From: a virus
IMG/VR virus record: IMGVR_UViG_3300025000_000083
Coordinates: 8,211-72,210 of that record
DNA: 64,000 bases
Strand: one strand, 5' to 3'
Position numbers and translations under genes: made by a program
In this document: piece by piece, positions 4,533 to 40,222 of the stretch
How the letters are laid out: every line of letters starts with the position of its first letter
Numbering within the stretch: position 1 is the first letter of the stretch
The notes under the pieces: generated by a model
The model's database searches: none
Told to the model about the DNA's origin: nothing
Seen by the model: the letters and a program-made list of their open reading frames with translations, nothing else

Positions 4533-4536
4533 AGTC

Positions 4537-4941: not shown

Positions 4942-4969
4942 CTTATTTTATTTTATTGTCTCTGAGTGC

Positions 4970-5431
4970 CTATAAATTTCGTATCTGTGAATAACTCATC
5001 TTTTTTACAAGCTTTGACTTCCAATTCCAATGATCAAAAAGCTCATCAATAGTAAATGCCCTAACACCTCCATCCTGATCAATATAAAATTCAGTATATG
5101 AGTTATTATGATCATATCCTTTTTCAATCATCCATTCTTTAAAACCTTTGATATGAAGTTTTGATTCTATCATATCATTGATTGCTTTCTCAATTTCATC
5201 CGTCACAACCTTACTTCTCTTAACTAAGTCAAGATACCATTTTGCAATAGTTTCTTTATCATGTGTCATTAATGATTCTAAGTCTTCATCTTTACTGTCG
5301 GGAAGGGATTTCAATAGCTCATTACAAACCATCAAAGCACCCTGAGCTTCAATATAATGCTCATTTGGATAGTCCCATTCTGCAAGTTGCTTTTCTGCTC
5401 TTGCTTTAATTTCAAGGATTTTGGCTTTCAT
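4970..5431 (-). CDS. hypothetical protein
   Basis: 153-aa ORF in gene-dense run. Confidence 0.6.
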   Translation of the reverse strand: MKAKILEIKARAEKQLAEWDYPNEHYIEAQGALMVCNELLKSLPDSKDEDLESLMTHDKETIAKWYLDLVKRSKVVTDEIEKAINDMIESKLHIKGFKEWMIEKGYDHNNSYTEFYIDQDGGVRAFTIDELFDHWNWKSKLVKKMSYSQIRNL

Positions 5432-24000: not shown

Positions 24001-27000
24001 AATTTCTGATCCATGTGTTGCAGATGATTCACCCATGAATAAAGAATCTCATCCTTATCAAGTTTTATTATGCCATCAAGAAATGAAGGTTTCTCCTCTT
24101 TCTCTGCAAACAATGATAAAACTTTTGTTCTTGGATCCTGTGCATCATACCTATTCCAATCCGTTCTTGCCTGAGTAAGTGCATTTTTAATCTCCGGTGC
24201 GTTCTCAATTAATTTTTCAAACCAAGCATAGAACTTTGGAGTAACCTGCTTAACCTGATCAGGATTGATCACATAGTCCTTCACAAACTCAGCGATAGCC
24301 TCAGTCCTTTTCTCTGATGGATAACCTACATATTTAAGGTAGTCTGTTAATTCTTTCTTAAACTCAGCCCTCTGCATCACTCCATCAACTATCTCGTCTC
24401 CATGTTTCTCCCTGAGTGTAACGAGTCTTGAATCTCTTGCTTTTAATTGGATGGTGAGTTTTCCAATAAGATCATTTGCCTTTGGTGATTTTATCCTCCC
24501 TTTCGTCACGTCTGCATTTATAGCATCCTCGGTCTTGTATGTCCTTCCTTTATACTTAACTCCGGGGATTTTTACTGCGGCAGTAACATCAGCAAATCTA
24601 TCTCCCTCAACCTTTGATCTATGGCCAATAACTCCACGAATGTCAAAAGCAAACTGATCTATGTAGTGACCTATCTCATGGGCTAATACCCTGACATCAC
24701 TGATATTCTTAACCCTGATGACTCCACTCTGAGAATTGAATATCCCTGCTGCCTTCCGCATAAACCTCTTGATCATTCCGGTTCTGACCTGTTCTCCCTC
24801 AGTCTTGCCTATGTTCTTTACAAGTCCTCTGCCCATATTACGAAGTGACATGGCATTATTCAAATCACTTGACTTATAATTCGGGTCTTCTGTTGTCGAT
24901 ACGGGCAATGGCTGATCCCATGCAAGTTCTTCTGGATTGTCTGTTTTGGGTTCTGTCTTTAGTTTCTTCTGTCCTTTTGCCCTTGGTGCTGATGGGAATC
25001 CTTCTACCTTCCCCCCTTTGCCTCCCTTTTTAGGTGGTGGAGGATTAAGATTATTCACATCCTCCCTGATCTGCTTTGACTCATCAAAGGTTATCTCTCC
25101 CCTGTCAATAGCCTCCAATACTTCATCTACGGATTGGTAGGTTTTGTCTTTAAAGGTGACTCCGTTCTTTTCTACTTTTGCGGCAATAGGTTTTGCCTCA
25201 CCTTCTGTTTCAACTGGTTTAACATCTGTCTCTGTGCCTCCTGAAACGATATTCCCTTCTTCTTTGCCAGTAGTAATGTCTCCTTGGTTTGGTTTTTCAT
25301 TGGTGTCTGATTTTATTCCTTCGGTTCCTTTTTCTTTGCCGCCTTCAACATCGCCAGTAGCGTTAGCAAGGTAGTCTTCTTCGGCTGTTCTGGACTCTTG
25401 TTCTGCTTTTCTGATGTACTCTGTGATTTCATCATATTCGATTTTAGTTATTAATCCTTTTTCAAGTGCCTTATCTGCATCGGTGTATGAGTAATTATCA
25501 AGTTCTGCACGGTTTCTCTTTATCAAATCCTCCCTCTCTGCACGTATATCATCACGGGATATTGATACCTTGGACTTTCCTTCTGCATTCCAGATGTCAA
25601 TACCTCCATGCTCTTTATACATGCGTTCAAGTTCATTCAATGCCTGTGCTGATGCGGTGGATTTCTTTCCTTCTTTGATGTCACGGAATGCCTGAGCCCT
25701 CTGTTCATTACTCAGACCGCCTATCATCACACCATAGAGATCGGGGTTCGTATCGAATACATCCGCAACATACTTCTGAAACTCAGCATCTCTCTCTGAG
25801 AGTGGCTTCTGTGATTCAATCTTAACCTTATCAACCTTTGTCGGGTCTTTTCTGAGAGCAAGAAATTTGCCATCTTTGATAACACCTACCTTCCACTCAT
25901 CGCCCTCTTTTACTTCATATCCAAGTCTCTTTGCATTTACCCTTATGGTGTTTGCCTGTAAAGCATTTTTCTTCTTCTGTGATGCGGATAAGATGCTATA
26001 ACTACGTGCTGCGTCAATAAGTTCATTCTTTTCAAGTTCTTTCTGGGGTGTCTTAACAAGTCCTGTCTCAACGGGTTCCTCTTTGCCTTTCTGCTTAGAC
26101 TTTATCTCGGCTTTTTTGTTCTCCGTCCATTCATTGATTGCCTTAACAGTCTCGGGTGACGGCCATGAATTGACCTCTCTGTCAAACCACCTCTCATCAA
26201 CTTCACCGCTCTTTTTATCAATGGCAACATCTTCCAGATAGGTAGCAAGTTCCTTCTTGTCAGCAAATGACTTGTCACCTAATGCCAATTTCTCATCAGT
26301 TACTTCTTCCGGTGCTTTCTCTGACTTCTTCTCCTTCTTGGGTGCATAATCCTCCAATGGCTTGCTTAAAGTAGTTTCAAGTGCCTTATTCTGTTCCTCG
26401 ATCTGAGTTGTGATAGACTGTACCTTTGCATCTTTTATCTTCTGATCGGTGCTGGTATCTTCCTGCCAATACTGCAACTCGGATTCCTTTTTCCTGATGT
26501 CATCCACAATCGGCTCTGCTTCTGTAATACGTGGGTCGGCTTCCTTTACTGTGGTGTTGATCTTGTCAGTCCATATCTTTTTTTCCTTTGCAGATAGCTT
26601 CGGGTCATTCTGTATGTTATCAATGAATGCCTTGGGATTCTTTACTATTTCCTGAGTCATGGCATTTACGCTGATGATGTTGTCAATGGATGTCTTTTCA
26701 TCAAGTAACTTCTTTTTCAGTTCTGGATCAGTTTCCTTTTCATACTCATTCCACAACTCATCAGACTGCTTCCGTAACTTCATCGGGTCAACCTGCATCT
26801 TGGATATTGTCTTGATGGCATTATCCGTGGTGGTCAGGTATGAAATGTACGACCTGTGAGCAATAGACCTGTTCATAGCCTCCATGCCAATATCATATCC
26901 TGAGAATAAGCCTCCCATTATAGCTCCTTCCATGAATGTACCTCCCTTTAACTTTGAATCGGCACCGAACATTATGCTATTTGCAAGTCCTTTTGATGTT

Positions 27001-28106
27001 GACGATAATGTTTGTCCTCCTCCAAGTTCCTTTACGAGTTGACCTACACGTCCTGCTACAATTCCCATACCTTCATAGGTTAGCCCATTGGCAATACCTT
27101 CGGCTGTAGATAATGCTACCTTGCCCGGAGATTTCCCTGTTCTTGCAGCCTCTCCTCCTTCCATTACACCTAAATATGCAGGGAATAATGGAGTTCTTTC
27201 CATTCCATATTTTGCTAATGATGCAAGTTTGGGGGTCGGAGGCGTTTTTATAGCCATAAGATCAAACAAAATACTCCCTGTAGATGCAAGGGTTTTTCCA
27301 ATAAGATCATTCGGTATTGCTTCGGGATTCCCCGCTTTTTCAAGGGCATTTGCAAGTAATTCATAATCATCCTTAGCAAAAGCACCTAATAGTGGCACAT
27401 TAGAAAACGCACTTCGTAAATATTGTTCTGAAATGCCCTCTTTCTTTCCTGATGCCTTTTCAACTAAATATGCTGCGGATTCAATAGGACTTGTAACTGC
27501 ATTACCGATTATTCTTATGGCTTGTGCGGCTCTCTGATTAAAGCCTTGTGGCAATGCGGTAAGATATGCTTGTATTGTAGGTTTCTCCTCTTTTACTTCG
27601 GGTGACTTCAATAGTCCTTTTGCCAGAACATCCTCTATGGTAGTCTGAGGATAGCCTGATGAATCGGGTGTTTTTAATGATGTGTCGGGTTTGATGAACT
27701 TGCTGAAGTCTGTTTCTTCGGGTGCAGGCATCGTGTCTAATGCGTGACCTACTACATCACGTGGCTCATTAAACTTAAAGTTTGCCAGTTCAGACGGTGA
27801 TGGCTTCTTGCTTACTTCGGGTTTCTCTTTTGGGGAAGAATCCTCGCCAAAAACTTCGAGAACCAAGTCTTTGCCAAAGCCAAGAGTCTTGTATAAGTCT
27901 TTTTTTTTTAATCCTAATGTCTCGGAAAAACTCTCATAGGTATCAGGAGCATCAAACTTATTAGCCTTCAGATAGTCATAATACTGTTTTGCATTTGCCT
28001 CATCAGCCAATGTTGAAGAGAATGATTCGTAGGTACTCGGCACATCTGCTTTTGCAGTTACCAAATAGTCGTAATACTTTCGTAAGTTGTCATCTTTTAC
28101 TTCCAT
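21069..28106 (-). CDS. giant internal virion / polyvalent protein (HExxH module, C-terminal LPD38-like region)
   Basis: 2345 aa; VLAHEIGHYID; PFLNARAQ ... LPMPKGFFG ... ANKQGYTGKPI; tandem YYDYL..YESFS.TL repeats at N-terminus. Confidence 0.75.
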   Translation of the reverse strand: MEVKDDNLRKYYDYLVTAKADVPSTYESFSSTLADEANAKQYYDYLKANKFDAPDTYESFSETLGLKKKDLYKTLGFGKDLVLEVFGEDSSPKEKPEVSKKPSPSELANFKFNEPRDVVGHALDTMPAPEETDFSKFIKPDTSLKTPDSSGYPQTTIEDVLAKGLLKSPEVKEEKPTIQAYLTALPQGFNQRAAQAIRIIGNAVTSPIESAAYLVEKASGKKEGISEQYLRSAFSNVPLLGAFAKDDYELLANALEKAGNPEAIPNDLIGKTLASTGSILFDLMAIKTPPTPKLASLAKYGMERTPLFPAYLGVMEGGEAARTGKSPGKVALSTAEGIANGLTYEGMGIVAGRVGQLVKELGGGQTLSSTSKGLANSIMFGADSKLKGGTFMEGAIMGGLFSGYDIGMEAMNRSIAHRSYISYLTTTDNAIKTISKMQVDPMKLRKQSDELWNEYEKETDPELKKKLLDEKTSIDNIISVNAMTQEIVKNPKAFIDNIQNDPKLSAKEKKIWTDKINTTVKEADPRITEAEPIVDDIRKKESELQYWQEDTSTDQKIKDAKVQSITTQIEEQNKALETTLSKPLEDYAPKKEKKSEKAPEEVTDEKLALGDKSFADKKELATYLEDVAIDKKSGEVDERWFDREVNSWPSPETVKAINEWTENKKAEIKSKQKGKEEPVETGLVKTPQKELEKNELIDAARSYSILSASQKKKNALQANTIRVNAKRLGYEVKEGDEWKVGVIKDGKFLALRKDPTKVDKVKIESQKPLSERDAEFQKYVADVFDTNPDLYGVMIGGLSNEQRAQAFRDIKEGKKSTASAQALNELERMYKEHGGIDIWNAEGKSKVSISRDDIRAEREDLIKRNRAELDNYSYTDADKALEKGLITKIEYDEITEYIRKAEQESRTAEEDYLANATGDVEGGKEKGTEGIKSDTNEKPNQGDITTGKEEGNIVSGGTETDVKPVETEGEAKPIAAKVEKNGVTFKDKTYQSVDEVLEAIDRGEITFDESKQIREDVNNLNPPPPKKGGKGGKVEGFPSAPRAKGQKKLKTEPKTDNPEELAWDQPLPVSTTEDPNYKSSDLNNAMSLRNMGRGLVKNIGKTEGEQVRTGMIKRFMRKAAGIFNSQSGVIRVKNISDVRVLAHEIGHYIDQFAFDIRGVIGHRSKVEGDRFADVTAAVKIPGVKYKGRTYKTEDAINADVTKGRIKSPKANDLIGKLTIQLKARDSRLVTLREKHGDEIVDGVMQRAEFKKELTDYLKYVGYPSEKRTEAIAEFVKDYVINPDQVKQVTPKFYAWFEKLIENAPEIKNALTQARTDWNRYDAQDPRTKVLSLFAEKEEKPSFLDGIIKLDKDEILYSWVNHLQHMDQKLAAPWKKIVGSGYSTSKDPLISAKTMMGIDGRAQQWLLHHPYLRNGNDIKIRKDIEGLVSVLKPIIGTAKDMDYRGYLLAMDSMEAYKQGHPEKAVMSSELANKAIELWEKQYGRKDLLDFQEKIQRYNEALLDFYVETGKMSQETVKLIKSQHEYYVPLKRVFDEYEVGGGRNIGVKDVLATSEKAVWARHGSMKAVKDIYQSMIENTYQILAAGERNVLLTNVRDAFMDIQKYNRSKKIDTSIIEEIPPNQVKAYFDVETGEMRYTITKEKPKQGRILSVWEKGEAHYYDVAPEYYDPIFQQEAKVSEIFRKLSLPSRWLQAGAVVYDPTFPIRNIFRDQQSSWFYSKYNYLPTDFIKGIASFMGKDEAYQKWLASGGDQSFLVSADQMMEKDYAKKKIGRTLNRKWETYKRNPLAAFQDLSRASEIGTRLGAFKNAYKKTNDVWKAAIESRDVSADYGIHGARVKAVLGMYPFLNARAQHARMTVEAMKNPGSLFMKGMAITAPALVNWLWNNQDEESRKLYQSLPAWRRVGMFNIRIPGTDHFLPMPKGFFGVVFGSSIEAFMDSMVADDDRVVEELPNELFKQFSPVGNITELVPFIIRPEVEMWANKQGYTGKPIISESMKKLKPSEQYYNSTPEIYKKIGEALNWSPVKINHYVKSYTGGAGMGAVNILDETLQAAGLVDKKPEDSFTMLSRMPVFKALLTERPVGLQSGYVSDFYETLDKVEQLNSTFNNLVKTENYEKLDKLMADPDNQRMYSFYEGNSTAINNFRASLTWIRDAGYAVMKDDLLSMKEKQLEIKRMNDIVQETAIKFKEAYEKEEFFDYGKGMDEIIEKMRDEKKDVRGDLKQQQNLYSPYWQMLRKDNKVIFDNIREFGGFKDVDQKVRITADGFKPIDLSMEKSRLYNEKFIENYGKEVKRLLGETKDKYQSQQSKKPYDMNKEGTLLEETFNLAWERARMNTTREFYVKKLYEE

Positions 28107-29406: not shown

Positions 29407-30198
29407 CTATTGTTTTTCAAGTCCCTTAATCGCTTCCAAAATACTATTCAGGTCAATGCTGCCTGTCGCATTATTTTTTCCCTTACCCCACATCAGGGAT
29501 GAGTTGAAGTCCTGATTTGTTGAACTGAGGTATTCTGCACCCGAACCAAGTACGTTCTTAACACCTGAGTTGATGTTTTTCATTCCTGAGTCCCTTAACA
29601 TCTGTGCTATCTGTGCAGCCTGCAAGTACGGATCGGCCTTGTTCCATTCCCATACACGGTTTTCTTCTCCTGCTTTTGTTCCAAGTGCACTCATGTAGTC
29701 TCCCTGATAACCGGCTATCTGTTGTGCGGTGTCTCTTGCCATCTCTCCAAACTGATTCTGCTGCCTACCTACAAGTTCACCCATCATGCCATAAGCCTCT
29801 GCACCACTTCCAAGTTCTGATGCTGCTCTTAATCCTGCTGACGTGGCTCCCTTTATCTCATTACGGTACATCTCTCCACCAGGGATGTCATTTGCAAGCG
29901 TCCTTCCATACGAGTAATTAACAAGTTTATCAACACTCGGTGCAATAACGGCTTCGGGACGTGGGTTATTTGCCTCCATCTCCTTTGCCTGCTTTAACTG
30001 CCTCCCCCCGACTATTCCCTGAAATATTGACGGCAGGATGTTAAGCACCTGTGCAACAATCTCACTTGTGCCTCCGGTGGCTACTCCTAATCCGGCTCTT
30101 GCTGCATTGCCTGCCAATGATGCGGCATATTTCTGACCTCTCTCATACTGCCCTTGATTGGCTGCAGCATACTTAGTTGGTGTGGGTGCCCATGTCAT
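29407..30198 (-). CDS. putative ejection/pilot protein
   Basis: Ala/Gly/Gln-rich with hydrophobic N-terminal stretch; follows muzzle gene. Confidence 0.6.
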   Translation of the reverse strand: MTWAPTPTKYAAANQGQYERGQKYAASLAGNAARAGLGVATGGTSEIVAQVLNILPSIFQGIVGGRQLKQAKEMEANNPRPEAVIAPSVDKLVNYSYGRTLANDIPGGEMYRNEIKGATSAGLRAASELGSGAEAYGMMGELVGRQQNQFGEMARDTAQQIAGYQGDYMSALGTKAGEENRVWEWNKADPYLQAAQIAQMLRDSGMKNINSGVKNVLGSGAEYLSSTNQDFNSSLMWGKGKNNATGSIDLNSILEAIKGLEKQ

Positions 30199-30202
30199 AT
30201 CT

Positions 30203-32848
30203 TTAAATATTACGTTCTGATGGTGTTGAAAATACTGTTATCGAATCAATCCTGACCTTCTCATCATGTTCTGATGTCCTGAGTTTGACAAAGCAGAATC
30301 TCCCTCTCATCTCCCTTCCATTAAGTTTACGGCTAAGTGATGTCAGGAAATTCCCCTTGGAGTTCTCATCCTTCATTATCTTGCCAAAATAAACTCCCTC
30401 TCTGCGTTCAAATACCGGAACATTACTTTCCATAAGTTCTCCGGCTGCTGATGCTTCTGCGGGGATGGACACATACCTTGCAAGTGACTCGAGCAGATGA
30501 TCAGCAATAACTCCAATGGCTGTGAACACCTTGTTTTTAACAGGTTCCATATTAGAAACGACCTCTATCTCTGCATAGGTGGATGTTCCTGACCACGAAA
30601 GATAATCCTGTCCCTCATCCATATTCATAATCCACAGTCTTTGATGATACAAATGTGCGAAAAAATTACCTAAGTGAAGGTAGCTTTCGGTTATTTGATC
30701 TATCTCCGTGACAAACCTCCCTCTCTTTTCACTGAATACGATGCCCTTGATCTCATCTCCCTGACGGAATGTTGCCCATACTTCTTCAAACTCATTGTTT
30801 GCTCCGATGTTCACCACAAGTGCATCTCCACCCCCTGTTGTTCTTATCCATGCCACAAGGTCTTTAAACCATCTTGACATCTTATATTCGGGTCCTGATA
30901 ATGCAAGTTGTCCATTGGGTGCTGATCTTATAAGAGCTCCCTGACTGTTATCCCAATAATACAGATTCCTTCCATTTACCATTATGCTGTCGGGATGCTG
31001 ACACCCATAGTCAGTCTCCATAGGACGTGTCTCTGCAAGGAACTGGTCAGTAAGTACGAACTGCTCTGTACCATCAGGATTAAAGGTCTGTATCCTGTTT
31101 ACATAGATAGATGTCTCCTTATATAGTTGGATGATCTTTAAGGTGAACCCTACCTCTCTCAGTCCTGTTATGTCACCATTCTTCTTAGGCAGGTCAACAA
31201 AATCATCATAGACAAAATGAGCAATGTTATTTGTGCGTGTCCCTGTTATCAGAAATCCTCCGTTTCTTATCCTCTCATGCAATACTGTCTGCCTCTGGCT
31301 CAGATCATCCAAGAACGGGAATCCCTGAGATGTGAGTTTGTTCGCAATAAGCTGATCACTCCACCAATCACTCGGAAAGATGCTCTCTGCCCAAAATGGA
31401 TATATGAGATTCGATGCGTGTTTATAGTTTAACCGGATATATTTGAAACAGTCATGTGCGGTGCTGTTAACCTCCGCTTCTTGCACCAACACCCCGTTTG
31501 CGCCAAATATCTGATCAACATCTCCTTTGTGATATTTCTTCCCATATTCATTTGTTGCAATGTCAAACACCATTCCTGCACCATAAGCAACGGTTTGTCC
31601 TAATCCCTTACGTGGACGATATAGTTCGACTACGATGTTCTCTGCACCTTCAAATGGAGTAGGGTGTTCTACTGCCTGAAAGATAAGCCAATCGCCTCCG
31701 ATGGTATCTCCGTATTGCGTCCCTGTGGATTCTATCTCGTAATCATAAACGTAATCACTACCTATTGCCTCTCCATAACTTGTGGTTTCATCAATAGTCC
31801 CTACAAGCCTTATCCTATCTCCTTCTTCCCATACATAAGTAGGAACCTTCCACCTGTTATTCTTGCCCTGTGTCCATTCAAATGTATCGGTGACATTAAG
31901 AGCATATCGGTTATTCCCTATCCCTGTTATATTATCAGCACGAATCTGTACAAAATAATCCATAGAGATATTCCCGTAATACACAATCTCGTATGTCTCT
32001 GCCCAATCAGGGGGGGTGTGTTTAATCTTGAATAATAAAGAGACTATTTCATTAAGTGCCGGACCTCCTTCTTTAGAGTAGAAAGGAATATAGATGTCGA
32101 GAAGTTTGGTTTTTACTACTGAACATTGCCTTCCACTCCTATCTTTATAAACAATCCCGAATCCGTGGGTTGCGCCACATTTTAAGTCCGTGAACTTTGA
32201 TGTAAATCCGTATGATGATATATATGCAGTCAATGTAAGATAATCAAACATCACTGTCAAATCCTTTATTTCATAAGGATCAAAACAGAATGTCCTCCCT
32301 GTCTCGTCCATGTATATCTGATTATAAGGAGATCCTGCTACAACTGACATCCCAGCCAAAGTCATTGCTGCAGACAGTCCTGCTTTTACATCTGCCAATG
32401 TGTCTCCGGGATTTGCTACATACGAAGCACTTAAATCAGTGCCATCCATGACGTTTACTGCATTCACAAAATAAGTGCCACCTTCTACTATGCTCTCAGG
32501 GATTGTAATTGCCATTACTGCTGTCACAATCTCCCATTCTTTACAGTGACCTGCGGGGTCAACTCCAATAGATGATCCTGTTTGTACCGGAGATGCATCA
32601 AGTATAGTAGATGGTACTACACTCCCTGCGTCTGTGTAGATAATCTCATAGTTAATGTCCGGCTGAATCACATCAGACCCCTCGGTTATCATTCCAAAGA
32701 CAAGAGCATTACCCCCTACCAGTTCCATGTGTCCTGCAAGTGGAGGGACATAGGTAAATGGTTCGGCAATGACCCCTGCATCAATGATCTCCTTCACCCT
32801 ATCATTATAGAATGCAAGATTATAATCCGAGTTGTGTGCTGCTATCAT
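30203..32848 (-). CDS. tail muzzle/stabilisation protein (P22 gp10-like), C-terminal fragment
   Basis: FYND..VPPLA..ME..GN.LVFG...EG; FGIVYKD..GR; YGCQHPDS; YYWD...G; KVF; GREMRG. Confidence 0.8.
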   Translation of the reverse strand: MIAAHNSDYNLAFYNDRVKEIIDAGVIAEPFTYVPPLAGHMELVGGNALVFGMITEGSDVIQPDINYEIIYTDAGSVVPSTILDASPVQTGSSIGVDPAGHCKEWEIVTAVMAITIPESIVEGGTYFVNAVNVMDGTDLSASYVANPGDTLADVKAGLSAAMTLAGMSVVAGSPYNQIYMDETGRTFCFDPYEIKDLTVMFDYLTLTAYISSYGFTSKFTDLKCGATHGFGIVYKDRSGRQCSVVKTKLLDIYIPFYSKEGGPALNEIVSLLFKIKHTPPDWAETYEIVYYGNISMDYFVQIRADNITGIGNNRYALNVTDTFEWTQGKNNRWKVPTYVWEEGDRIRLVGTIDETTSYGEAIGSDYVYDYEIESTGTQYGDTIGGDWLIFQAVEHPTPFEGAENIVVELYRPRKGLGQTVAYGAGMVFDIATNEYGKKYHKGDVDQIFGANGVLVQEAEVNSTAHDCFKYIRLNYKHASNLIYPFWAESIFPSDWWSDQLIANKLTSQGFPFLDDLSQRQTVLHERIRNGGFLITGTRTNNIAHFVYDDFVDLPKKNGDITGLREVGFTLKIIQLYKETSIYVNRIQTFNPDGTEQFVLTDQFLAETRPMETDYGCQHPDSIMVNGRNLYYWDNSQGALIRSAPNGQLALSGPEYKMSRWFKDLVAWIRTTGGGDALVVNIGANNEFEEVWATFRQGDEIKGIVFSEKRGRFVTEIDQITESYLHLGNFFAHLYHQRLWIMNMDEGQDYLSWSGTSTYAEIEVVSNMEPVKNKVFTAIGVIADHLLESLARYVSIPAEASAAGELMESNVPVFERREGVYFGKIMKDENSKGNFLTSLSRKLNGREMRGRFCFVKLRTSEHDEKVRIDSITVFSTPSERNI

Positions 32849-32855
32849 CAGTGTG

Positions 32856-33284
32856 TTAGCTTACATAGATTATGCCAAGAGCGTTCCATGTGATGGTGCT
32901 TGTGCCATTACTCACAATCTGGTCTGTCTCGAGATCAATGATTGCCCTAATTTTTGATGTTGCGGGGTTTCCGGTATCGGCATATACTACCAAATAACGG
33001 TAATTGAGACTTGCTCCCGGCCCTATCACCTGATCTGTTGCGTCAAGAAAATAGTTATTACCATGTGCTGTTGATGCGTTTCCGGCAATAGCCACTCCTC
33101 CTGCTGCATATCCGGTTGTCGCTGCAATCTCATACGTTGCAGTATCAAGGTTAGATACATACTGATGCGTAGCGGCATTTGGAGTAAAGGTATTTTTCAG
33201 CAACATGAGTTTCAGAGATTCATTCTTCCATGCGGTAGTGATCTCATCTTTTACAAATTTTGGAATACAACTAAGACTTGCCAT
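32856..33284 (-). CDS. small tail/fibre-associated structural protein
   Basis: LKLMLL...YE....GYAAGG...WNALGI pattern of phage tail proteins. Confidence 0.6.
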   Translation of the reverse strand: MASLSCIPKFVKDEITTAWKNESLKLMLLKNTFTPNAATHQYVSNLDTATYEIAATTGYAAGGVAIAGNASTAHGNNYFLDATDQVIGPGASLNYRYLVVYADTGNPATSKIRAIIDLETDQIVSNGTSTITWNALGIIYVS

Positions 33285-33296
33285 GATATTTTGAAT

Positions 33297-35744
33297 TTAA
33301 GTTATTTCGACTGTTGATAAATATACTCTTACTGTGTCTCCTGTGTACATCGCTACATCTGCTGCAAAGTACCTGTCAAATGCTCCATTATAAACATCCT
33401 GCGAGGTGGCATTGTGTCCACGTGTCACACCATTGACGGTTATCTTCCACCATAATATGAATGGGTCACTGTTGCCAAAATCATAAGATATTGTGCCCGT
33501 GACCCTGATTACCGTGCCTCCACTTGCCACAACCCCTGCGCCTGAGGTTATCCTCAGATCAGTAGGCTCATCCATGTCAATGCTTACATAACAGGTGACA
33601 TCTGACGGAGGTATGACCACTGCTGCTGACTGCTCTACCCATACTGATATTGTATCTCCGGCATCCGTCATAAAGGTTATCGGTGCTGATGGCTTTGCTC
33701 CTCCGATGTTCTCCTCTGTCGGATATACTTCAAGGGTGTCACCATCATTGAAATACATGCCTTCTGACATAGGGTAGTCACCATTTCTGTTTACAGTGAG
33801 CCAATCCGGTTTTGCACTCATATAAGCATTATACGGTAATGCCTCCATAATCAAATCCTCTTTGTTTGCCACACCAAATTCTGCTGCTGTCCATATAAGA
33901 TGATTTGCGGATGCAGCAACACTTGAATTTACAATGCTTGGCTTAATTGGTGTCAGTCCCAATGGTATCTGTGTATTCGCTGCCTTCTGAATATCTACTG
34001 CTGAGAGATACACATCTACCGTTTCTCCTGCCACCAAGTTCCTGTTTAATGCTATCGGTACTGGGTAATTTATAGTGCCATTGGTCACTGAGAAACTACC
34101 ACCACCATACGGCAATACCCCTATATCTGCCCTCCAATACATCGTAAATGTATCACCAGGATTATAGTCTGAGTTGTCAGTTCTGAATACCAACGTCACA
34201 AGCCTGCTCTGGCTCATTGCCGAAGCGGAGTTATTAGTTATAGTCTGAGGACTTGCATCATCGGGGTCTTTCTGTACTGTACAGACTATTGCTACCGGAG
34301 GGGGAGGGCTTGCTGCTGCCTGAGAAACGAGTATTGATGAACTGTCACCATAAGAGTTTGTCAAAACAATGTATCCCGACCTTGCCACGTATGCGGTGTT
34401 CTCTGTTGCGGGAAATACTGCGATTACTTCACCATTAACCATGGTCATCCCTGCTGACATGTCAAAACCACCACCATTGCGAAGTGTAAGCCATGATGGA
34501 AATGAAGTCAGAAACAAAGATACGGGGGAACAATCTATGATTATCTCCTCCCTGTCATCATATCCCTCCTCTGCTGCTCCAAAAGCTATTGCAGGGATGG
34601 TTGACACATAGGACATAAACACATCTGGGGTGAGGGGGGTTAATCCTAATCCAACCTCCTCGGGCAATGATTCAATTGAGTTTTCTACTGATGGCAACGG
34701 CACGGATAATGCCAATTCAACATACCCTGCCTCAGTAGTTCGGGAAATCTCATTGCCTCTCTCCTGCTCCTCAAACTTATTTATTGTCTCTATAAGGAAC
34801 CATTTTGATGTGTCCTGACTGCTTCTGCCTATAACCTCTATGGCTCGTACTTCTTCTCCTCCTGTGTCGAAAGTTATTTGTAGCTTGTTGTTCAATGACA
34901 CCATCTCATTTGCAAGGCCTGTGGCTGTTTCTTCTTCTGCCTGTGGCACGGGAATAATACTTGCCGGAGAAAAGGTACTCTTTCTCCAATCCATGTACAC
35001 ATACCTGTATGCCACCTGAAATAATGTCTGCCTGAGATTATTTATTTTGCGTGTGTCGTCTGACTCATAGGTGACTACCGGAGGATGTTTTGGTGGTGCT
35101 GCCTCAAAATAGAAGTTCTTCACATCCATAGAGTAATACGCATCCTCAATGAGACATTTCAGATTAAGCCATGCTGTCCCTGCATCTGACTTTGGTTCAT
35201 TGCCTACATTTGCGTTAAGAAGACTCTTGTAATAACCATTGCCATTGCTGACTATCTGATCTATGTCATAACTTTCTATCGCACTCCACTCTAATGTCTG
35301 AGGGTACTGACCATAACCGATGCCAAGCAAAAATGACTTCTTTGCTCTTGCTATGTCCATCTGATAGATTGGATTCAGATTATCCGTCCATACGAGTCTT
35401 CCATGCACCACACGTGGATTATTAAACTTATACTTAGCATTGAAGCCTATGTCATTATACTGGTCATAATAAACTACTGTCTGTACACGGGTGTCGATGT
35501 TTATCTCTATTATCCATGCTGAATATCTCTCTGTGTCAATATAAAAGACATACAAACACCTTGTCTCTGGATCAATGCATTTACCATTCAGCAGGATATT
35601 TGTGATATAAGAAGGGTCAATAGAAGTCGTTGCGCCATCTTCCTTTATGAGCCTCACAGACCTCCAATAAGTCTTCAGTGCTGATGCTTTTGTTGCAACG
35701 GCACTGTCATATGAAAGGGATAATATTTTAGCGTATGAACTCAT
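33297..35744 (-). CDS. muzzle middle fragment with CBM-like motif and two BACON+Ig-like repeats
   Basis: LVWTDNLNP, FQVAYRYVY.D...S.FSP; two repeats containing P.WL.V...V.P..N...V.Q.AA. Confidence 0.7.
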   Translation of the reverse strand: MSSYAKILSLSYDSAVATKASALKTYWRSVRLIKEDGATTSIDPSYITNILLNGKCIDPETRCLYVFYIDTERYSAWIIEINIDTRVQTVVYYDQYNDIGFNAKYKFNNPRVVHGRLVWTDNLNPIYQMDIARAKKSFLLGIGYGQYPQTLEWSAIESYDIDQIVSNGNGYYKSLLNANVGNEPKSDAGTAWLNLKCLIEDAYYSMDVKNFYFEAAPPKHPPVVTYESDDTRKINNLRQTLFQVAYRYVYMDWRKSTFSPASIIPVPQAEEETATGLANEMVSLNNKLQITFDTGGEEVRAIEVIGRSSQDTSKWFLIETINKFEEQERGNEISRTTEAGYVELALSVPLPSVENSIESLPEEVGLGLTPLTPDVFMSYVSTIPAIAFGAAEEGYDDREEIIIDCSPVSLFLTSFPSWLTLRNGGGFDMSAGMTMVNGEVIAVFPATENTAYVARSGYIVLTNSYGDSSSILVSQAAASPPPPVAIVCTVQKDPDDASPQTITNNSASAMSQSRLVTLVFRTDNSDYNPGDTFTMYWRADIGVLPYGGGSFSVTNGTINYPVPIALNRNLVAGETVDVYLSAVDIQKAANTQIPLGLTPIKPSIVNSSVAASANHLIWTAAEFGVANKEDLIMEALPYNAYMSAKPDWLTVNRNGDYPMSEGMYFNDGDTLEVYPTEENIGGAKPSAPITFMTDAGDTISVWVEQSAAVVIPPSDVTCYVSIDMDEPTDLRITSGAGVVASGGTVIRVTGTISYDFGNSDPFILWWKITVNGVTRGHNATSQDVYNGAFDRYFAADVAMYTGDTVRVYLSTVEIT

Positions 35745-35753
35745 TCTTAATTA

Positions 35754-37271
35754 TTAAGGCGTATCCCGCATGCAACGAACCGAACATCCAGCTGACTTAT
35801 TAATATCGCTTCTAAATGCTTGAATATTATTCCATAAAATATAGCGAGACCATGCATTCGCTCCCCCTGCCACAGTAGAACTCCATTTATTACCATAGTT
35901 AGTTTTTTGATAAAACACACCATCATTGCCACGATAACCACCAGGCATATATTTGAGTCCATATTCATCTGTAGCCCCTGTATTTGGTGTTGTCCAATGA
36001 TCTAATCCCATTTCTTTTAGTTTCCCCCCAGCAACAAAATCGCCCCCTGCGAATGCCATTAAAGCAGACCAATCTGCATCACTTGGGACTCTCCATCCCG
36101 TAGGTGCAAGATAGGCTCCTGCAACAACATTGTGATGATCTACTGCGTACCAATTATAAAGTAATCCATAATCAGGTATATTTAAAGGATCATTATTGTA
36201 AGCACAATATCCTTCTGTTATCAATGCTGCCCATGCGGCATTACCAACTACTTCTGTTATTGGAGACCCATCTCGGAATTTAGTTGTCTTTAGATTCTCT
36301 ACCATCCACTGCTGAGCACCAATAGTAACATAAGTATAAACATTACCATCTGCATCAATAATTCCATCTTGGGTTGTTATAGTCGAGGTATTTGAATTTG
36401 GACTTGTACCAACATCATTATATGCACGTACACGGTAATAATATGGTGTCAGAGGTGATAATCCACTGACTGTATCAAATAATACATTGCCTACATCCTT
36501 ATTGTTAAACCCTGCCACAAATGCAGTAAAATTCACATCCGTTGCTACATCGAGATAATATCCCGTCACCCCTTCTACTGCCAACCAGTTTGCTATAAAG
36601 GTCGTAGGTGTCTTCACACTCCCATTTATCGCTACCGGAGCCACGGGTTCACCCTCATCAGCAAGCCACAAAAGACAATTATCTCCAAGTAGGTCAAACA
36701 ATAAATCAAACTTACCTCCGGGCACTGCACGGAATCCTGAAAGATCACTTGCCCCTGTATTCGGGTCTGTCCAATGCTGTTCCCCTGTCTCCTTTAATTT
36801 TCCGCCTGCTATCGCTGCACCACCAAGATATGTTAATAACGTGTCAATATCTGCCTCCGTAGGTACTCTCCACCCATCAGGGCAAAAGCCTGCTGTCATT
36901 ACCTGACCATGCGTATAAAGCCTCCCATAGATGTCTGCATTATCCTCAGTGTCATCATATACCTTACTGCCCGGATACTCACCATCATAGTTCTTCTTCA
37001 TCCACGTTTGAGTGCCTATAACTATCTCATTATAGCCACTATAAACAAATTGTCCACCAATACTCGATCCATAATATGTGATGAGATTATTGGGATTGAT
37101 TAAAATGCAAACTTCAGACTGCAATGATTCAGCATTTCCGCTTTCGTTCTGAGATGCAGAGGATAAAGCACGGATATTTAAAGCCTCGATATATTCTCCG
37201 GGCTGCAAATCGGCAGGCGCATCGTCTTTGTTCAAGCCAATCTTAAATGATTTCTTATCCTTCAATTGCAT
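35754..37271 (-). CDS. muzzle N-terminal fragment fused to Fib_succ_major (partial), FN3 and Fib_succ_major domains
   Basis: GLNKD....LQPGEYIEALNIR; IGTQTWM..N, YGRLY, CPDGWRVPT; YYYRVRAYN..G.S..S; SVRCMRD. Confidence 0.8.
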   Translation of the reverse strand: MQLKDKKSFKIGLNKDDAPADLQPGEYIEALNIRALSSASQNESGNAESLQSEVCILINPNNLITYYGSSIGGQFVYSGYNEIVIGTQTWMKKNYDGEYPGSKVYDDTEDNADIYGRLYTHGQVMTAGFCPDGWRVPTEADIDTLLTYLGGAAIAGGKLKETGEQHWTDPNTGASDLSGFRAVPGGKFDLLFDLLGDNCLLWLADEGEPVAPVAINGSVKTPTTFIANWLAVEGVTGYYLDVATDVNFTAFVAGFNNKDVGNVLFDTVSGLSPLTPYYYRVRAYNDVGTSPNSNTSTITTQDGIIDADGNVYTYVTIGAQQWMVENLKTTKFRDGSPITEVVGNAAWAALITEGYCAYNNDPLNIPDYGLLYNWYAVDHHNVVAGAYLAPTGWRVPSDADWSALMAFAGGDFVAGGKLKEMGLDHWTTPNTGATDEYGLKYMPGGYRGNDGVFYQKTNYGNKWSSTVAGGANAWSRYILWNNIQAFRSDINKSAGCSVRCMRDTP

Positions 37272-38074
37272 AATGATGCTTCTTGTTGCTCTATTTTATT
37301 TTTTAATTTTCTTAATTCCCATGTTTTTAATGCAGATAAACGACATCTTTCCTTTACCTCGGAGGATCTCGGCTTCCGCATTTTCTGTTTACTCTCCTCT
37401 GTATGTTTAAATCCTTTATGCGACTGACTCATCTTCTCTCGCAGTTCTTCCGGCATCTTTTTACCCTTCCATGGACCAGGTCTCCCTTTGCTTGCTATTG
37501 ACATCTTCGCTAAAGTCTCTTTTGAAAAGCGTCCATGAGTCCCTTTATACTTATTTGGTCTGCCTGTACTTGCAATGCGAGTTCTCTCTCGATGCATATC
37601 AGACATTTTTCTCCCTAAGTTATTTTTATTCCCCTTATGAGCCCTCGACATCTTCTCTCTTGTTTCTTTTGAATATATCCTGTTTTTAGCAAATTCCCTC
37701 ATCTTTTGTCTTGTTTTTTCCGATGGGTTACTATTTGCTTTTCCAATCTTCTTTCTTGTTTCTCCTGATAATTTACGTCCTAAAGAACTTCCTGCTATCT
37801 TACAGATATTAAAATATGGTTTCAATTTACTTATATAAAACTGTTCTCTGTTTATCATCCAATCAGAAAAACAAGGTTCAATAATTGAGAATTGTAAATC
37901 GTCAATCCCGTATTTATTAACATGATATTGAAGTTTTTTAGAATGATGTTTATTGTCGATTAAATGTTTAAAGTGTTCTCTCCACCGATGAGTTATATCT
38001 AAAGAACTTCCAATATAAATCCTTTCGGGTTTAATCTTAGACTGAATCTTATATATGCCAGATTGGTTTTTCAT
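37262..38074 (-). CDS. GIY-YIG endonuclease with NUMOD3 repeats
   Basis: GIYKIQSKIKPERIYIGSS. Confidence 0.85.
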   Translation of the reverse strand: MKNQSGIYKIQSKIKPERIYIGSSLDITHRWREHFKHLIDNKHHSKKLQYHVNKYGIDDLQFSIIEPCFSDWMINREQFYISKLKPYFNICKIAGSSLGRKLSGETRKKIGKANSNPSEKTRQKMREFAKNRIYSKETREKMSRAHKGNKNNLGRKMSDMHRERTRIASTGRPNKYKGTHGRFSKETLAKMSIASKGRPGPWKGKKMPEELREKMSQSHKGFKHTEESKQKMRKPRSSEVKERCRLSALKTWELRKLKNKIEQQEASLCN

Positions 38075-38856
38075 CTGCGGGGGGCTTGATAGGTAGTACT
38101 ATAAACCATCCTGAGATATTCGTCTTTTGTGAATGCGTTCTCATGTGACCTCAATGCTTCAATCGCTTCTTCATGTTCTGTTTTAAGCCTTTCCTTTGCG
38201 TTGTAAGCTATCCTTTGGTCATTTTCGTCCTTCTGCCAGAGAACATAAGTTCTGAGTGCAGGAACGCATATACGTGGTATCAGAGATGAACCATCGGGTT
38301 TTAATCCGGTACTGACATATTCCAAAACAATTTCTGACCTTGGGGTGCTGCCTGAGAACACAAACTGCCTGTTCTCTCTGTCCTCACGAAAATATGCATC
38401 ATCAATGGCTCCGGGTAGTCCATATAAACCTCCAACAAAAACACCATTTTTCCAGTGATCTTGGAAGTAGATTATATTTGCTACATCAGCAGCTCCAATG
38501 GCTGCACCGTAATAATTGCCTATTTCCTCTCCTGTATCATCGAATACCCTTGGGAGTAATATGCTATCTTTCTTTGTGATGACCACCAATTTGCCCTCAC
38601 TCGGGTAGCCAATTTTGATGTAATCTATGTAGTCTGCCGGAAATGCAACTGTTTTGGCTGCACTCATGTGAAGATAAACTACTTCTGAACCCGAGTCCAG
38701 ATGATACATAGAAAGTTCTTCCGAGAATCCCTCAATGGCAATCTGCATATATCTGAGGTACGATTTTAAACTATAGTCCTGCAGTCTGTTAAGCATCGAC
38801 ATGACCACATATCTCAGTGTCACAAGTCCGGCGGTCTTTGGTATGGCAGTTGACAT
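38071..38856 (-). CDS. tail ring/adaptor protein (crAss-like)
   Basis: P.DYIDY.KI, IVLEYVS.G; directly upstream of muzzle. Confidence 0.7.
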   Translation of the reverse strand: MSTAIPKTAGLVTLRYVVMSMLNRLQDYSLKSYLRYMQIAIEGFSEELSMYHLDSGSEVVYLHMSAAKTVAFPADYIDYIKIGYPSEGKLVVITKKDSILLPRVFDDTGEEIGNYYGAAIGAADVANIIYFQDHWKNGVFVGGLYGLPGAIDDAYFREDRENRQFVFSGSTPRSEIVLEYVSTGLKPDGSSLIPRICVPALRTYVLWQKDENDQRIAYNAKERLKTEHEEAIEALRSHENAFTKDEYLRMVYSTTYQAPRR

Positions 38857-38859
38857 TGC

Positions 38860-39522
38860 TTATTGGTTTTTAGTTATGACCATATCATTCGACACGTCAG
38901 CAGTAGGTTTGCCTCGCATCACTTCAATAACCATCTTCATCAGATCATCCTCCCCATTCTCGGGCAGGGCAAGGTCATCAAAATCGTCAATCTGATCCAG
39001 ATTTTGGACTAATAAGGCATCGACACTTGTTATTAATGTAGCAGGAGCCACAGGTAGTTTATCGAGCCTAAGTAGGTGACTTGCTTCTCCTGCGCCTGTG
39101 CTCAGATAGTTTTGTTCAAGCGAGTAGGTGGGTGTCGAATCCATGGTATTCACTTCAAGTTCTGCAAACACTACTGCTGCCGTTGCCTCCATTGGCGCAA
39201 ACACATTTGATGGATCATCGGTGTCTGAAATTTGTCTTATCCCTGCATTTTCCGGCAACTGAACAGGAGCAAATGGCAATAATACATGAGCCTTTGTGCC
39301 TACCTGACTTGCTACTGCACATGGATACATCTTACTCCATGCGTCAATCTGACTGAACTCATTGTACTTCTTTCCGTTTCTCCATGCATTGATGATGATC
39401 TTATTGAATGCAGATGACATCCATACCTTAATCTCTTCTGGGTGGTACTGTCCTTTCAAATCACCCGCATTATCAGATGCAAGCCACGATTGAATATTGT
39501 CAACCAAGTTTATTTTCTTCAT
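38860..39522 (-). CDS. putative tail ring protein
   Basis: Size and position among ring genes. Confidence 0.55.
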   Translation of the reverse strand: MKKINLVDNIQSWLASDNAGDLKGQYHPEEIKVWMSSAFNKIIINAWRNGKKYNEFSQIDAWSKMYPCAVASQVGTKAHVLLPFAPVQLPENAGIRQISDTDDPSNVFAPMEATAAVVFAELEVNTMDSTPTYSLEQNYLSTGAGEASHLLRLDKLPVAPATLITSVDALLVQNLDQIDDFDDLALPENGEDDLMKMVIEVMRGKPTADVSNDMVITKNQ

Positions 39523-39523
39523 G

Positions 39524-40222
39524 TTATCCTTCTTTTATCTTGGCATTTGCATAATTCACAATATCCGACTCACGCAAATTTACTCCAATATATTCCAAGC
39601 ACCGCCTCATTATAGGTATTTTTTCATCCTCTGGCCATTCCAGTTCGGTTGATGTGGCAGCATCATACACAATATACCCATCATGTTCAGTGTATTGGAA
39701 TGACGGTGTTGCCGGAAATTTGTAGTAATTTAAATCCGAATTTACTATTGTCAAAGGTCTTATGTGTATTCCATCGCTGCGAATAATTCCGCAAGGACTT
39801 GCAGTTGTTGGTCTCTTGGTATAGTTGCCCTCTCTTGCTGCGAACTCTGCCTCTCTGAGTATCTCTACTGGCTTTGGAAGGGTGGTGGCAACACCGTTGA
39901 TGGTCTTTGAGAAATTATAAACTACTGTCATTAAATGAACGTAGTTGGAAGGAAAGTCCATCACTCCGTTTGTCACAGTTCGGTTTGGCAGACGCACCTT
40001 AAAGGCTTTCATATCGTCAATATTCTTCAGGGTTATCTCCGAACCTTCACTTGCTATCGGTCTTCCTGGTGCGTATTCTTCTGGCAGCCCATATTTATCT
40101 CTAAAGTGATCTATGTTAGCAGTGGCAATAAGCAAATTGAATCTTTCGGGTGTAACAACCAGCCCGTCAAAGTCCTTGTTTACTATCAGTTCAATTAACG
40201 AATAAATTTGCCCCAATGTCAT
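39524..40222 (-). CDS. tail ring/tubular protein (crAss-like)
   Basis: NKD..G..TP..FN, P.NY, Y...P..P, Y.GVNLRE. Confidence 0.7.
   Translation of the reverse strand: MTLGQIYSLIELIVNKDFDGLVVTPERFNLLIATANIDHFRDKYGLPEEYAPGRPIASEGSEITLKNIDDMKAFKVRLPNRTVTNGVMDFPSNYVHLMTVVYNFSKTINGVATTLPKPVEILREAEFAAREGNYTKRPTTASPCGIIRSDGIHIRPLTIVNSDLNYYKFPATPSFQYTEHDGYIVYDAATSTELEWPEDEKIPIMRRCLEYIGVNLRESDIVNYANAKIKEG

What the first reader, a model, noticed from the sequence alone, without database searches (positions are those of the whole stretch)
30203..37271. Tail muzzle gene split into three ORFs by nested adhesin insertions, with a Fib_succ_major domain cut in two across a stop codon
Seen: ORF 37271 begins with the muzzle N-terminus (GLNKD..EY..ALNIR) and enters a Fib_succ_major domain that breaks off at ...LLWLADE (~36654). 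It continues with FN3 and a second complete Fib_succ_major domain, then stops. The next ORF (35744, same frame, after TAA TAA) starts SSYAKILSLSYDS...KTYWRSVRLIKED, which looks like the missing end of the first domain. It resumes the muzzle to WFLIETINK (~34778) and diverges into BACON/Ig repeats. After a separate small tail gene, ORF 32848 resumes where the muzzle left off (NSDYNLAFYND..VPPLA). Inference: either the fragments reassemble non-covalently, giving free C-termini that display receptor-binding modules, or the inserts are skipped by splicing or ribosomal bypass to give alternative products. Both breakpoints show in-frame xxT GAG G (36657-36653 and 34773-34769), which may be chance.
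Basis: partly seen in the sequence, partly recalled or inferred. Interest (0 to 1): 0.8.

Follow-up and report, generated by a model that had tools for sequence, protein, structure and literature searches.

The report
Three-piece phage tail muzzle gene
In this complete 72-kb groundwater crAss-like phage the tail-tip "muzzle" protein, one chain in more distant relatives, is encoded by three genes, and the first cut runs through a sugar-binding-type domain whose missing end sits on the next protein, so the pieces probably snap together and use their free ends to carry exchangeable host-recognition modules.

Summary
On the minus strand lie O1 (35754-37271), O2 (33297-35744), a small gene O3 (32856-33284) and O4 (30203-32848). 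O1, O2 and O4 align in order to single-chain relatives. In P0097 (1249 aa), O1 1-72 matches residues 1-75, O2 55-327 matches 72-347, and O4 2-880 matches 350-1238.

The first Fib_succ_major domain in O1 stops at Pfam position 135 of 187. The first about 35 residues of O2 align to the end of that domain. A complex model packs them into it: score 0.92, best control 0.00.

The split is inherited, not an error:
- All 9 near-clade layouts I mapped share it.
- 108 of 120 O2-type protein clusters start at the same residue.
- Contigs of 4 runs match the stretch without a difference.

The O1/O2 reading frames differ among relatives and Rfam finds no intron. Splicing, bypass and readthrough are therefore rejected, and the "T GAG G" motif is chance.

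Five clusters carry the first insert in frame as one chain; one is verified on DNA (L034). They sit at four separate places on the tree.

Best reading: a non-covalent three-chain muzzle that displays swappable lectin, FN3 and BACON modules. This scan already reported the same design in several related genomes. My three literature searches found no published description.

The parts
37056..37271 (-). O1 residues 1-72: muzzle N-terminus (ring-joining-type arm by analogy with crAss001 gp44)
   Evidence: The O1N HMM, positions 1-72, matches residues 1-75 of the single-chain P0097. 26 of the 150 representatives match with their N-terminus; 2 further O1N hits fall in the lectin part. The domain name is an inference from PMC10172136.
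36654..37055 (-). O1 residues 73-206: Fib_succ_major domain A, truncated after the W-L-x-D-E strand
   Evidence: Pfam PF09603, profile positions 2-135 of 187, E 1.7e-21. The same break occurs in 8 of 9 near-clade phages.
36378..36626 (-). O1 residues 216-298: FN3 domain, first part of the variable display module
   Evidence: Pfam fn3, E 2.5e-05, 24.8 bits against a cut-off of 25, so marginal. The matching position in relatives holds fn3, Lcl_C, LRR or Fib_succ_major.
35766..36329 (-). O1 residues 315-502: complete Fib_succ_major domain B at the free C-terminus
   Evidence: Pfam PF09603, profile 1-187/187, E 7.8e-36.
35745..35756 (-). O1/O2 junction: TAA TAA TTA AGA, followed by the ATG of O2
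   Evidence: Read directly. Contigs of 4 runs show no difference. The gap is -8 to +9 nt in 9 relatives.
35640..35744 (-). O2 residues 1-35: missing C-terminal strands of Fib_succ_major domain A
   Evidence: Local HMM positions 159-189 in 9 of 9 phages. Conserved across 107 clusters. In the complex model O2 6-10 pairs with O1 199-203, and O2 27-29 pairs with O1 118-120.
34665..35639 (-). O2 residues 36-360: muzzle core, second segment (propeller start and IG1-like part by analogy)
   Evidence: phrog_14478 profile 167-285. The O2N HMM, positions 55-327, matches P0097 residues 72-347. The domain names are inferred from PMC10172136.
33300..34664 (-). O2 residues 361-815: variable display module (BACON/Ig-like repeats)
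   Evidence: Pfam BACON, 2 stretches, E 1.4e-07. Relatives carry FN3 arrays or nothing here.
32856..33284 (-). O3: 142-aa small gene between the second and third muzzle pieces
   Evidence: phrog_644, E 9e-16. Present in 10 of 10 split loci aligned. No hit in 10 unsplit muzzle proteins or in 150 representatives. Model pLDDT is 76.7. The best PDB fold match is a Bxb1 tail-tip chain, E 0.026, TMt 0.70.
30203..32848 (-). O4: third muzzle piece (rest of the propeller, IG2/crass-type body, C-terminal domain)
   Evidence: Model pLDDT is 87.6. The top fold matches are the crAss001 muzzle chains 7qol_P and 7qok_A, E 3e-19 and 1.5e-18. phrog_14478 profile 967-1094. crAss_MUZ_C at 18 bits, below the cut-off of 27.
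37262..38074 (-). GIY-YIG/NUMOD3 homing-endonuclease gene directly upstream, overlapping the O1 start by 10 nt. It is a neighbour, not part of the split.
   Evidence: Pfam GIY-YIG and NUMOD3, and phrog_314. It is absent at this place in the other near-clade loci. A 43%-identical copy lies elsewhere in L010-L012.

Best explanation
The phage builds its tail-tip muzzle (the podovirus nozzle homologue) from three separately translated chains that reassemble without a covalent link.

- O1 supplies the N-terminal arm, about three quarters of a lectin-type Fib_succ_major domain, and then a free C-terminal FN3 + Fib_succ_major module.
- O2 begins with the roughly 35 residues that complete that lectin domain by strand complementation. 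This acts as a clasp that ties O1 to O2. O2 then supplies the next muzzle segment and ends in BACON/Ig modules.
- O4 supplies the rest of the propeller, the crass-type body and the C-terminal domain.
- O3 is a small conserved accessory tail protein of unknown role.

The two cuts turn internal loops into free C-termini. Binding or sugar-cutting modules of any size can be hung there and exchanged by recombination, so the muzzle doubles as the mount for host recognition.

Shown here: the gene layout, its conservation, the colinearity and the fold identity. Inferred: physical reassembly, the presence of all the pieces in the virion, and receptor binding by the modules.
For: (1) Colinearity. In P0097 (1249 aa), O1N HMM 1-72 matches residues 1-75, O2N 55-327 matches 72-347, and O4 2-880 matches 350-1238. 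In L018, O2N 213-332 matches 177-301 and O4 2-857 matches 300-1114. phrog_14478 runs unbroken across the junction in L018.

(2) All 11 distant loci mapped have one ORF of 898 aa (L021, cut by the contig end) to 1671 aa. All 9 near-clade layouts (the window plus 8 loci) have the O1/O2/O3/O4 split.

(3) O1/O2 gaps are -8 to +9 nt. The frame offset is 0 in 3, 1 in 2 and 2 in 4 of 9. These are coupled separate ORFs.

(4) 108 of 120 O2-type clusters start within one residue of the O2 start. Their lengths run from 450 to 1230 aa, and the first 35 residues are conserved.

(5) Complex model of O1 1-206 with O2 1-360: score 0.92 (runs 0.92, 0.92, 0.91), best of 3 controls 0.00. That mark was reached by 58 of 80 solved complexes and by 2 of 110 mismatched pairs. 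The runs agree in at least 63% of contacts, and the partner's pLDDT is at least 73. The interface is O1 71-206 with O2 1-35.

(6) The fused forms P0308, P0311, P0351, P0322 and P0299 (5 of 120) carry the insert in frame. L034 confirms a 1201-aa ORF on DNA. They fall at 4 separate places inside the split clade. The one-chain and two-chain states therefore interconvert.

(7) The genome is complete (72,210 bp, terminal repeats) and has one copy each of O2 and O4, so no intact muzzle gene exists elsewhere.

(8) The O4 model matches the crAss001 muzzle best.

(9) The slots vary in content: fn3, Fib_succ_major, Lcl_C, LRR, BACON, and a separate Pel9A-like beta-helix gene in L005.

(10) Precedent: phage A1002 has a nozzle split into two chains that complete each other's propeller (PMC13730344, passages read).
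Against: - No experiment exists: no virion proteomics, no structure, and no RNA data.
- The complex pass may reflect the model's memory of single-chain lectin folds. It shows that the O2 N-terminus fits as the missing strands, not that the two chains bind in a cell. My own shallow 9-row alignments were used.
- O2's N-terminus alone scores only 0.1-2.6 bits on the local HMM, and in 2 of 9 phages the joined score does not beat the best shuffle.
- The O2/O4 contact was not modelled.
- O1 residues 1-70 were not placed with confidence.
- The window's O4 misses Pfam's cut-off for crAss_MUZ_C: 18 bits against 27.
- Profile searches of PDB sequences did not find gp44.
- L002 breaks the lectin domain about 13-17 residues earlier than the other phages.
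Confidence: 0.8

Rival explanations
1. The inserts are removed or skipped by RNA splicing, ribosomal bypass or stop-codon readthrough/recoding, so that one full-length muzzle chain is also made.
For: In the window O1 and O2 share a frame and lie only 9 nt apart after the tandem TAA TAA. Five natural relatives do make the O1-insert-O2 part as one chain.
Against: - The frame offset is non-zero in 6 of 9 relatives, and some junctions overlap.
- There are two tandem TAA stops.
- Rfam finds no match in 29500-38500 at E<=1.
- The inserts run from 77 aa (L032) to about 900 aa, differ in content and encode in-frame Pfam domains.
- The proposed junction word is not conserved.
- At break 2 a whole gene (O3) lies in between, and the frames also differ.
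- Contigs of the 4 DNA runs show no joined form.
Confidence: 0.03
2. O1 is an independent tail fibre that merely kept a muzzle-derived anchor. Its truncated lectin domain and the O2 N-terminus are vestiges that no longer fit together.
For: O2's N-terminus alone is too weak for any Pfam hit. L002 truncates the domain earlier. In L032 and L005 the slot modules are separate genes.
Against: - The O2 N-terminus is conserved in 107 clusters; for example S29, R31 and L32 are kept in 81-85%.
- 46 of 206 O1N positions are invariant in 9 phages that share only 48-70% identity.
- The complex model scores 0.92 against 0.00 for the best control, with strand pairing at exactly the cut ends.
- Fused forms recur at the same site.
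- No other gene supplies the muzzle N-terminus.
Confidence: 0.1
3. The stops are assembly or sequencing errors, or the gene is decaying into a pseudogene.
For: None beyond the unusual layout.
Against: - Contigs of 4 runs from 4 studies match 32800-37300 with 0 differences, although these runs may include the source sample.
- The same cuts occur in relatives down to about 48% identity.
- All the pieces are conserved.
Confidence: 0.02

Closest known systems
Muzzle protein gp44 of Bacteroides phage crAss001 (PDB 7QOK/7QOL; Bayfield et al. 2023, PMC10172136, abstract and muzzle passages read)
   Same: It gives the best fold match of the O4 model (E 3e-19 and 1.5e-18, prob 1.00, TMq 0.45-0.46). The gene lies in a structural block with terminase and portal genes, downstream of three 220-261 aa genes, two with PHROG structural-protein hits. 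The family is known to vary in length through domain insertions.
   Different: gp44 is one chain of about 1360 residues, while here there are three chains plus an interposed small gene. Sequence similarity is too low for a direct hit. A lectin domain is inserted after the N-terminal arm and is itself cut. The fragment ends carry FN3, lectin and BACON modules.
Split nozzle of Pseudomonas podophage A1002 (gp39 nozzle-rope + gp42 nozzle-base; PMC13730344, passages read)
   Same: An ancestral single nozzle is divided between two chains that complete each other's platform and propeller by strand augmentation. One piece also serves as a mount for fibres.
   Different: It is a different phage lineage with different cut positions. 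It has two pieces, not three. No lectin domain is cut, and it has no crass-type body. In A1002 the fibres are separate proteins, not C-terminal modules of the pieces. Homology of the cuts was not tested.
Single-chain muzzle proteins of more distant environmental relatives (e.g. P0093, P0097; loci L015-L026)
   Same: They have the same three segments in the same order and the same neighbouring genes.
   Different: They are one ORF of 1129-1671 aa in the 10 complete loci. They have no O3 and no Fib_succ_major domain at that site. P0180 and P0169 carry lectin-type inserts at other sites.
Fib_succ_major (PF09603) lectin-type domains and related Lcl_C/DUF1566 domains
   Same: Domain B of O1 is a full member. 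Domain A plus the O2 N-terminus covers the whole profile.
   Different: Domain A is encoded on two polypeptides. I know of no described member split this way (from recall; no literature search was aimed at this point).

Membership tests
Crassvirus muzzle protein (gp44 type) | Fold of the body and propeller like crAss001 gp44 | tested here: met
   The O4 model (pLDDT 87.6) has 7qol_P and 7qok_A as its top matches, E 3e-19 and 1.5e-18, TMq 0.45-0.46. The nozzle proteins of SU10, A4, Pan3, GP4, P22 and Sf6 follow.
Crassvirus muzzle protein (gp44 type) | Pfam crAss_MUZ_C (PF25729) above the curated cut-off | tested here: inconclusive
   The window's O4 scores 18 bits against a cut-off of 27, E 0.0039. 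9 of 23 aligned O4 homologues match at E<=0.01, best 1e-06.
Crassvirus muzzle protein (gp44 type) | Encoded as a single polypeptide | tested here: not met
   There are three ORFs with stops and their own starts. This layout is conserved in the clade.
Crassvirus muzzle protein (gp44 type) | Hexamer at the tail tip below the ring proteins | not testable with these tools
   Only gene order is available. Three genes of 220-261 aa lie upstream, and two of them have PHROG structural-protein hits. Their identity as ring proteins was not tested.
Fib_succ_major (PF09603) | Full-length match to the 187-position profile | tested here: met
   Domain B matches 1-187/187, E 7.8e-36. Domain A on O1 alone reaches only 2-135/187. 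The remainder maps to O2 1-35 with a local HMM and in the complex model.
Split nozzle of the A1002 type | Two chains that complete one propeller or platform by strand augmentation | not tested
Only colinearity with single chains is shown.
Self-splicing intron, intein or bypass element | Conserved RNA structure or splicing motifs, with frame restored after removal | tested here: not met
   Rfam finds 0 matches. Frames differ in 6 of 9 relatives. The inserts encode ordinary binding domains. Intein motifs were not searched for separately, and Pfam gave none.

The most novel reading that the evidence does not exclude
The cut lectin domain is a selected two-chain strand-complementation clasp. It acts as a natural docking adaptor, so this phage clade can hang receptor-binding or depolymerase modules of any size on the muzzle and swap them. 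It flips repeatedly between a one-chain nested-insert state and a two-chain state. The muzzle, rather than separate fibres, would then be the main host-range determinant of the clade.
Probability: 0.45. Interest if true: 0.75.

Novelty: new variant of a known kind. Interest (0 to 1): 0.6.

Why it matters
- It shows that an essential gatekeeper protein of crAss-like phages tolerates being cut at two defined loops. One cut runs through a folded domain.
- It shows that evolution uses the new chain ends as mounts for host-recognition modules.
- It points to where host range is encoded in an uncultured groundwater and soil phage clade.
- It offers a natural pair of complementing lectin fragments, with fused and split versions side by side, for studying protein fission and for modular engineering of phage tail tips.
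- It extends the single structural precedent of a split nozzle (A1002) to the crAss-type muzzle.

Tried and rejected
- Near-identity DNA search and an O4 protein search in the phage collection found nothing. The O2 search hit only Cellulophaga phages, at 28% identity over 29% of the query.
- The single-protein scan of viral contigs found nothing. The alignment-based scan worked.
- The O1N HMM found 0 of 10 unsplit proteins from the loci. It did find the N-termini of closer representatives.
- PDB sequence-profile searches gave no muzzle hit.
- The 'T GAG G' junction word was rejected as chance.
- Sequencing runs: no RNA holder is listed, so nothing can be said about expression. Only contigs were laid.
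- The O3 fold searches gave only weak or unnamed phage matches. Its role stays open.
- Literature: three searches found no description of a split crAss-type muzzle.
- dN/dS, and a model of the O2/O4 or six-fold assembly, were not done.

Full report
WHAT IS THERE

The window is most of a complete 72,210-bp virus record with direct terminal repeats. It comes from groundwater and soil metagenomes. All the genes discussed lie on the minus strand, inside a structural block. That block holds a large terminase (50048-52294), a portal (47732-50026), a capsid-type structural protein and three genes of 220-261 aa (38071-40222), two of which have PHROG structural-protein hits.

Downstream of that block lie, in order:
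- a GIY-YIG/NUMOD3 endonuclease gene, 37262-38074;
- O1, 35754-37271, 505 aa;
- O2, 33297-35744, 815 aa;
- O3, 32856-33284, 142 aa;
- O4, 30203-32848, 881 aa.

The O1/O2 junction reads TAA TAA TTA AGA ATG, in one frame.

Domains:
- O1 has an N-terminus of about 70 aa. A Fib_succ_major match follows that stops at profile position 135 of 187 (E 1.7e-21). Then come fn3 (216-298, marginal at 24.8 bits against 25) and a complete Fib_succ_major (1-187/187, E 7.8e-36).
- O2 matches phrog_14478 at profile 167-285 and carries BACON at 416-476.
- O4 matches the same PHROG at 967-1094 and weakly matches crAss_MUZ_C (18 bits, cut-off 27).

COLINEARITY WITH SINGLE-CHAIN PROTEINS

An alignment-based scan of viral contigs gave 29 loci. 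I printed ORF maps for 8 near-clade loci and 11 distant ones. I left out L006 and L007 (same layout as L005), L009-L011 (same as L012), L013 (upstream part missing), and L019 and L027-L029.

All 11 distant loci have one ORF of 898 aa (cut by the contig end) to 1671 aa. I built HMMs from the near-clade pieces and searched 10 complete unsplit proteins:
- O4 hit 10 of 10.
- O2N hit 9 of 10.
- O1N hit 0 of 10.
- O3 hit 0 of 10.

In L018, O2N 213-332 maps to residues 177-301 and O4 2-857 maps to 300-1114. The second cut therefore falls in a linker of about 10 residues. phrog_14478 runs unbroken over that point in L018 (67-416 to profile 62-397).

A full search of 1.84 billion representatives with the O4 profile found 3476 proteins at E<=0.001. 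Among the best 150, only the few closest start at O4's first residue. The next best (P0093 onward, 1190-1400 aa) carry about 345 extra N-terminal residues.

In P0097, O1N 1-72 matches residues 1-75, O2N 55-327 matches 72-347, and O4 2-880 matches 350-1238. This is complete three-part colinearity, and P0097 has no lectin domain at that site.

THE CUT LECTIN DOMAIN

In 8 of 9 near-clade phages O1's conserved part ends after a W-L-x-D-E strand. L002 ends about 13-17 residues earlier. O2 always begins with a conserved stretch of about 35 residues.

I built a local HMM from five unsplit Fib_succ domains. None of the domain-A copies was used. With it:
- The O2 N-terminus aligns to positions 159-189 in 9 of 9 phages, at only 0.1-2.6 bits.
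- The in-silico join reaches position 188-189 in 8 of 9 and gains 3-14 bits.
- The joined score exceeds all 50 shuffles in 7 of 9, but not in L014 or L002.

The complex model of O1 1-206 with O2 1-360 scored 0.92 (three runs: 0.92, 0.92, 0.91). The best of 3 controls scored 0.00. That mark was reached by 58 of 80 solved complexes and by 2 of 110 mismatched pairs. The runs agree in at least 63% of contacts, and the partner's pLDDT is at least 73. The confident interface is O1 71-206 with O2 1-35. O1 199-203 pairs with O2 6-10, and O1 118-120 pairs with O2 27-29.

This pass may come from the model's memory of single-chain lectin folds. It shows that the O2 N-terminus fits as the missing strands. 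It does not show that the chains bind in a cell.

THE SPLIT IS INHERITED, AND THE PIECES ARE SEPARATE GENES

- In the 9 layouts, the O1/O2 gap is -8 to +9 nt. The frame offset is 0 in 3, 1 in 2 and 2 in 4. The O2/O3 gaps are 4-18 nt, except in L005, where another gene intervenes. The O3/O4 gaps are 1-9 nt.
- Of 120 O2-type clusters, 108 start within one residue of the O2 start. Five are N-terminally cut fragments, two have a shifted start call, and five are fused.
- O4-type proteins of 866-963 aa that cover the whole query are common, down to 46% identity.
- Contigs of four runs from four studies match 32800-37300 with no difference and no joined form. These runs may include the source sample.
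- The genome has only one O2 copy and one O4 copy.
- Rfam finds nothing in 29500-38500.
- The 'T GAG G' word is found at break 1 in 2 of 9 and at break 2 in 1 of 9.

Splicing, bypass, readthrough, sequencing error and gene decay are therefore rejected.

FUSED FORMS

Five clusters (P0308, P0311, P0351, P0322, P0299) run from O1, through an insert, straight into the O2 segment. They have no methionine at the join. In the three full-length ones the insert is about 160-270 aa.

L034, a 41-kb metagenome contig, confirms this on DNA. It has one 1201-aa ORF: O1N at 8-216, insert at 217-370, O2N at 371-766. O3 and a separate O4 follow. So only the first cut is healed there.

I built a FastTree of 115 O2-type segments, rooted with 9 unsplit proteins. 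The fused forms sit at four separate places inside the split clade. Labels on that tree rest on where each protein starts; the upstream DNA was checked only for L034. This recurrent switching argues that the two-chain and one-chain states fold alike.

The slots also take separate genes. L032 has a 283-aa O1, a 327-aa ORF and then O2. L005 has a 394-aa O2 followed by a 929-aa Pel9A-like beta-helix gene.

The module content varies: fn3, Fib_succ_major, Lcl_C, LRR and BNR after O1, and FN3 arrays or BACON after O2.

IDENTITY AND COMPARISON

The O4 model (85-row alignment, pLDDT 87.6) matches the crAss001 muzzle chains best: 7qol_P at E 3e-19 and 7qok_A at E 1.5e-18, with TMq 0.45-0.46. The nozzle proteins of SU10, A4, Pan3, Pa223, GP4, P22 and Sf6 follow.

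Bayfield et al. describe gp44 as follows (PMC10172136; abstract and muzzle passages read):
- a ring-joining domain;
- a seven-bladed propeller;
- IG1 (residues 163-292) between blades 2 and 3;
- IG2 (residues 318-1021), which carries the crass fold.

By analogy, the second cut lies near the IG1/IG2 boundary, so the propeller would be shared between O2 and O4. This is an inference and was not tested.

The closest precedent is the A1002 nozzle, which is split into gp39 and gp42; the two complete each other's propeller (PMC13730344, passages read).

O3 models at pLDDT 76.7. It resembles a Bxb1 tail-tip chain (E 0.026, TMt 0.70) and unnamed phage proteins, some of them the N-terminal parts of 480-500-aa structural proteins. 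It occurs in all 10 split loci aligned. Its role is unknown.

VERDICT

This is a real, conserved, three-chain crAss-type muzzle with a lectin domain cut across two genes. It is most likely reassembled non-covalently and used as a mount for exchangeable host-recognition modules. Earlier follow-ups in this scan reported the same design in related genomes. My three literature searches found no paper on it.

Noticed in passing
window 37262-38074 (-): A free-standing GIY-YIG/NUMOD3 homing-endonuclease gene sits between the last ring-like gene and O1, overlapping the O1 start by 10 nt. It is absent here in the other near-clade loci. A 43%-identical copy lies one gene further upstream in L010-L012.
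   Followed up: partly
window ~35150-35300 (-), O2 residues 148-198: Weak profile match of the O2 family to a small carbohydrate-binding protein (6z40_A, E 0.38), with conserved W/Y positions. This may be a small CBM-like insert in the muzzle core.
   Followed up: no
L005:6762-9551 and L032:6859-7842: In relatives the two slots can hold separate genes instead of C-terminal extensions: a 929-aa Pel9A-like beta-helix (depolymerase-type) gene after O2, and a 327-aa ORF between O1 and O2.
   Followed up: partly
proteins P0180 (117-245) and P0169 (857-1045): Single-chain muzzle relatives carry complete Fib_succ-type domains inserted at other sites: in the early propeller in P0180 and in the distal body in P0169. 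Lectin inserts into the muzzle therefore arose more than once.
   Followed up: partly
L008:4250-5329: The ring-like gene upstream of O1 is 359 aa here instead of about 260. It has an insert of about 96 aa between residues 108 and 107 of the window homologue. L001 has two tandem copies of this gene (3491-4327 and 4349-5134).
   Followed up: no
L008-L013, O4 homologues (991-1009 aa): One subclade has a divergent first 400 residues of O4 (about 45% identity against about 65-76% for the rest) plus an insert of about 90 aa. This suggests module exchange inside the third piece as well.
   Followed up: no
window 21069-28106 (-): A 2345-aa ORF lies three genes downstream of O4. It may be a giant virion or cargo protein; I did not analyse it.
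   Followed up: no
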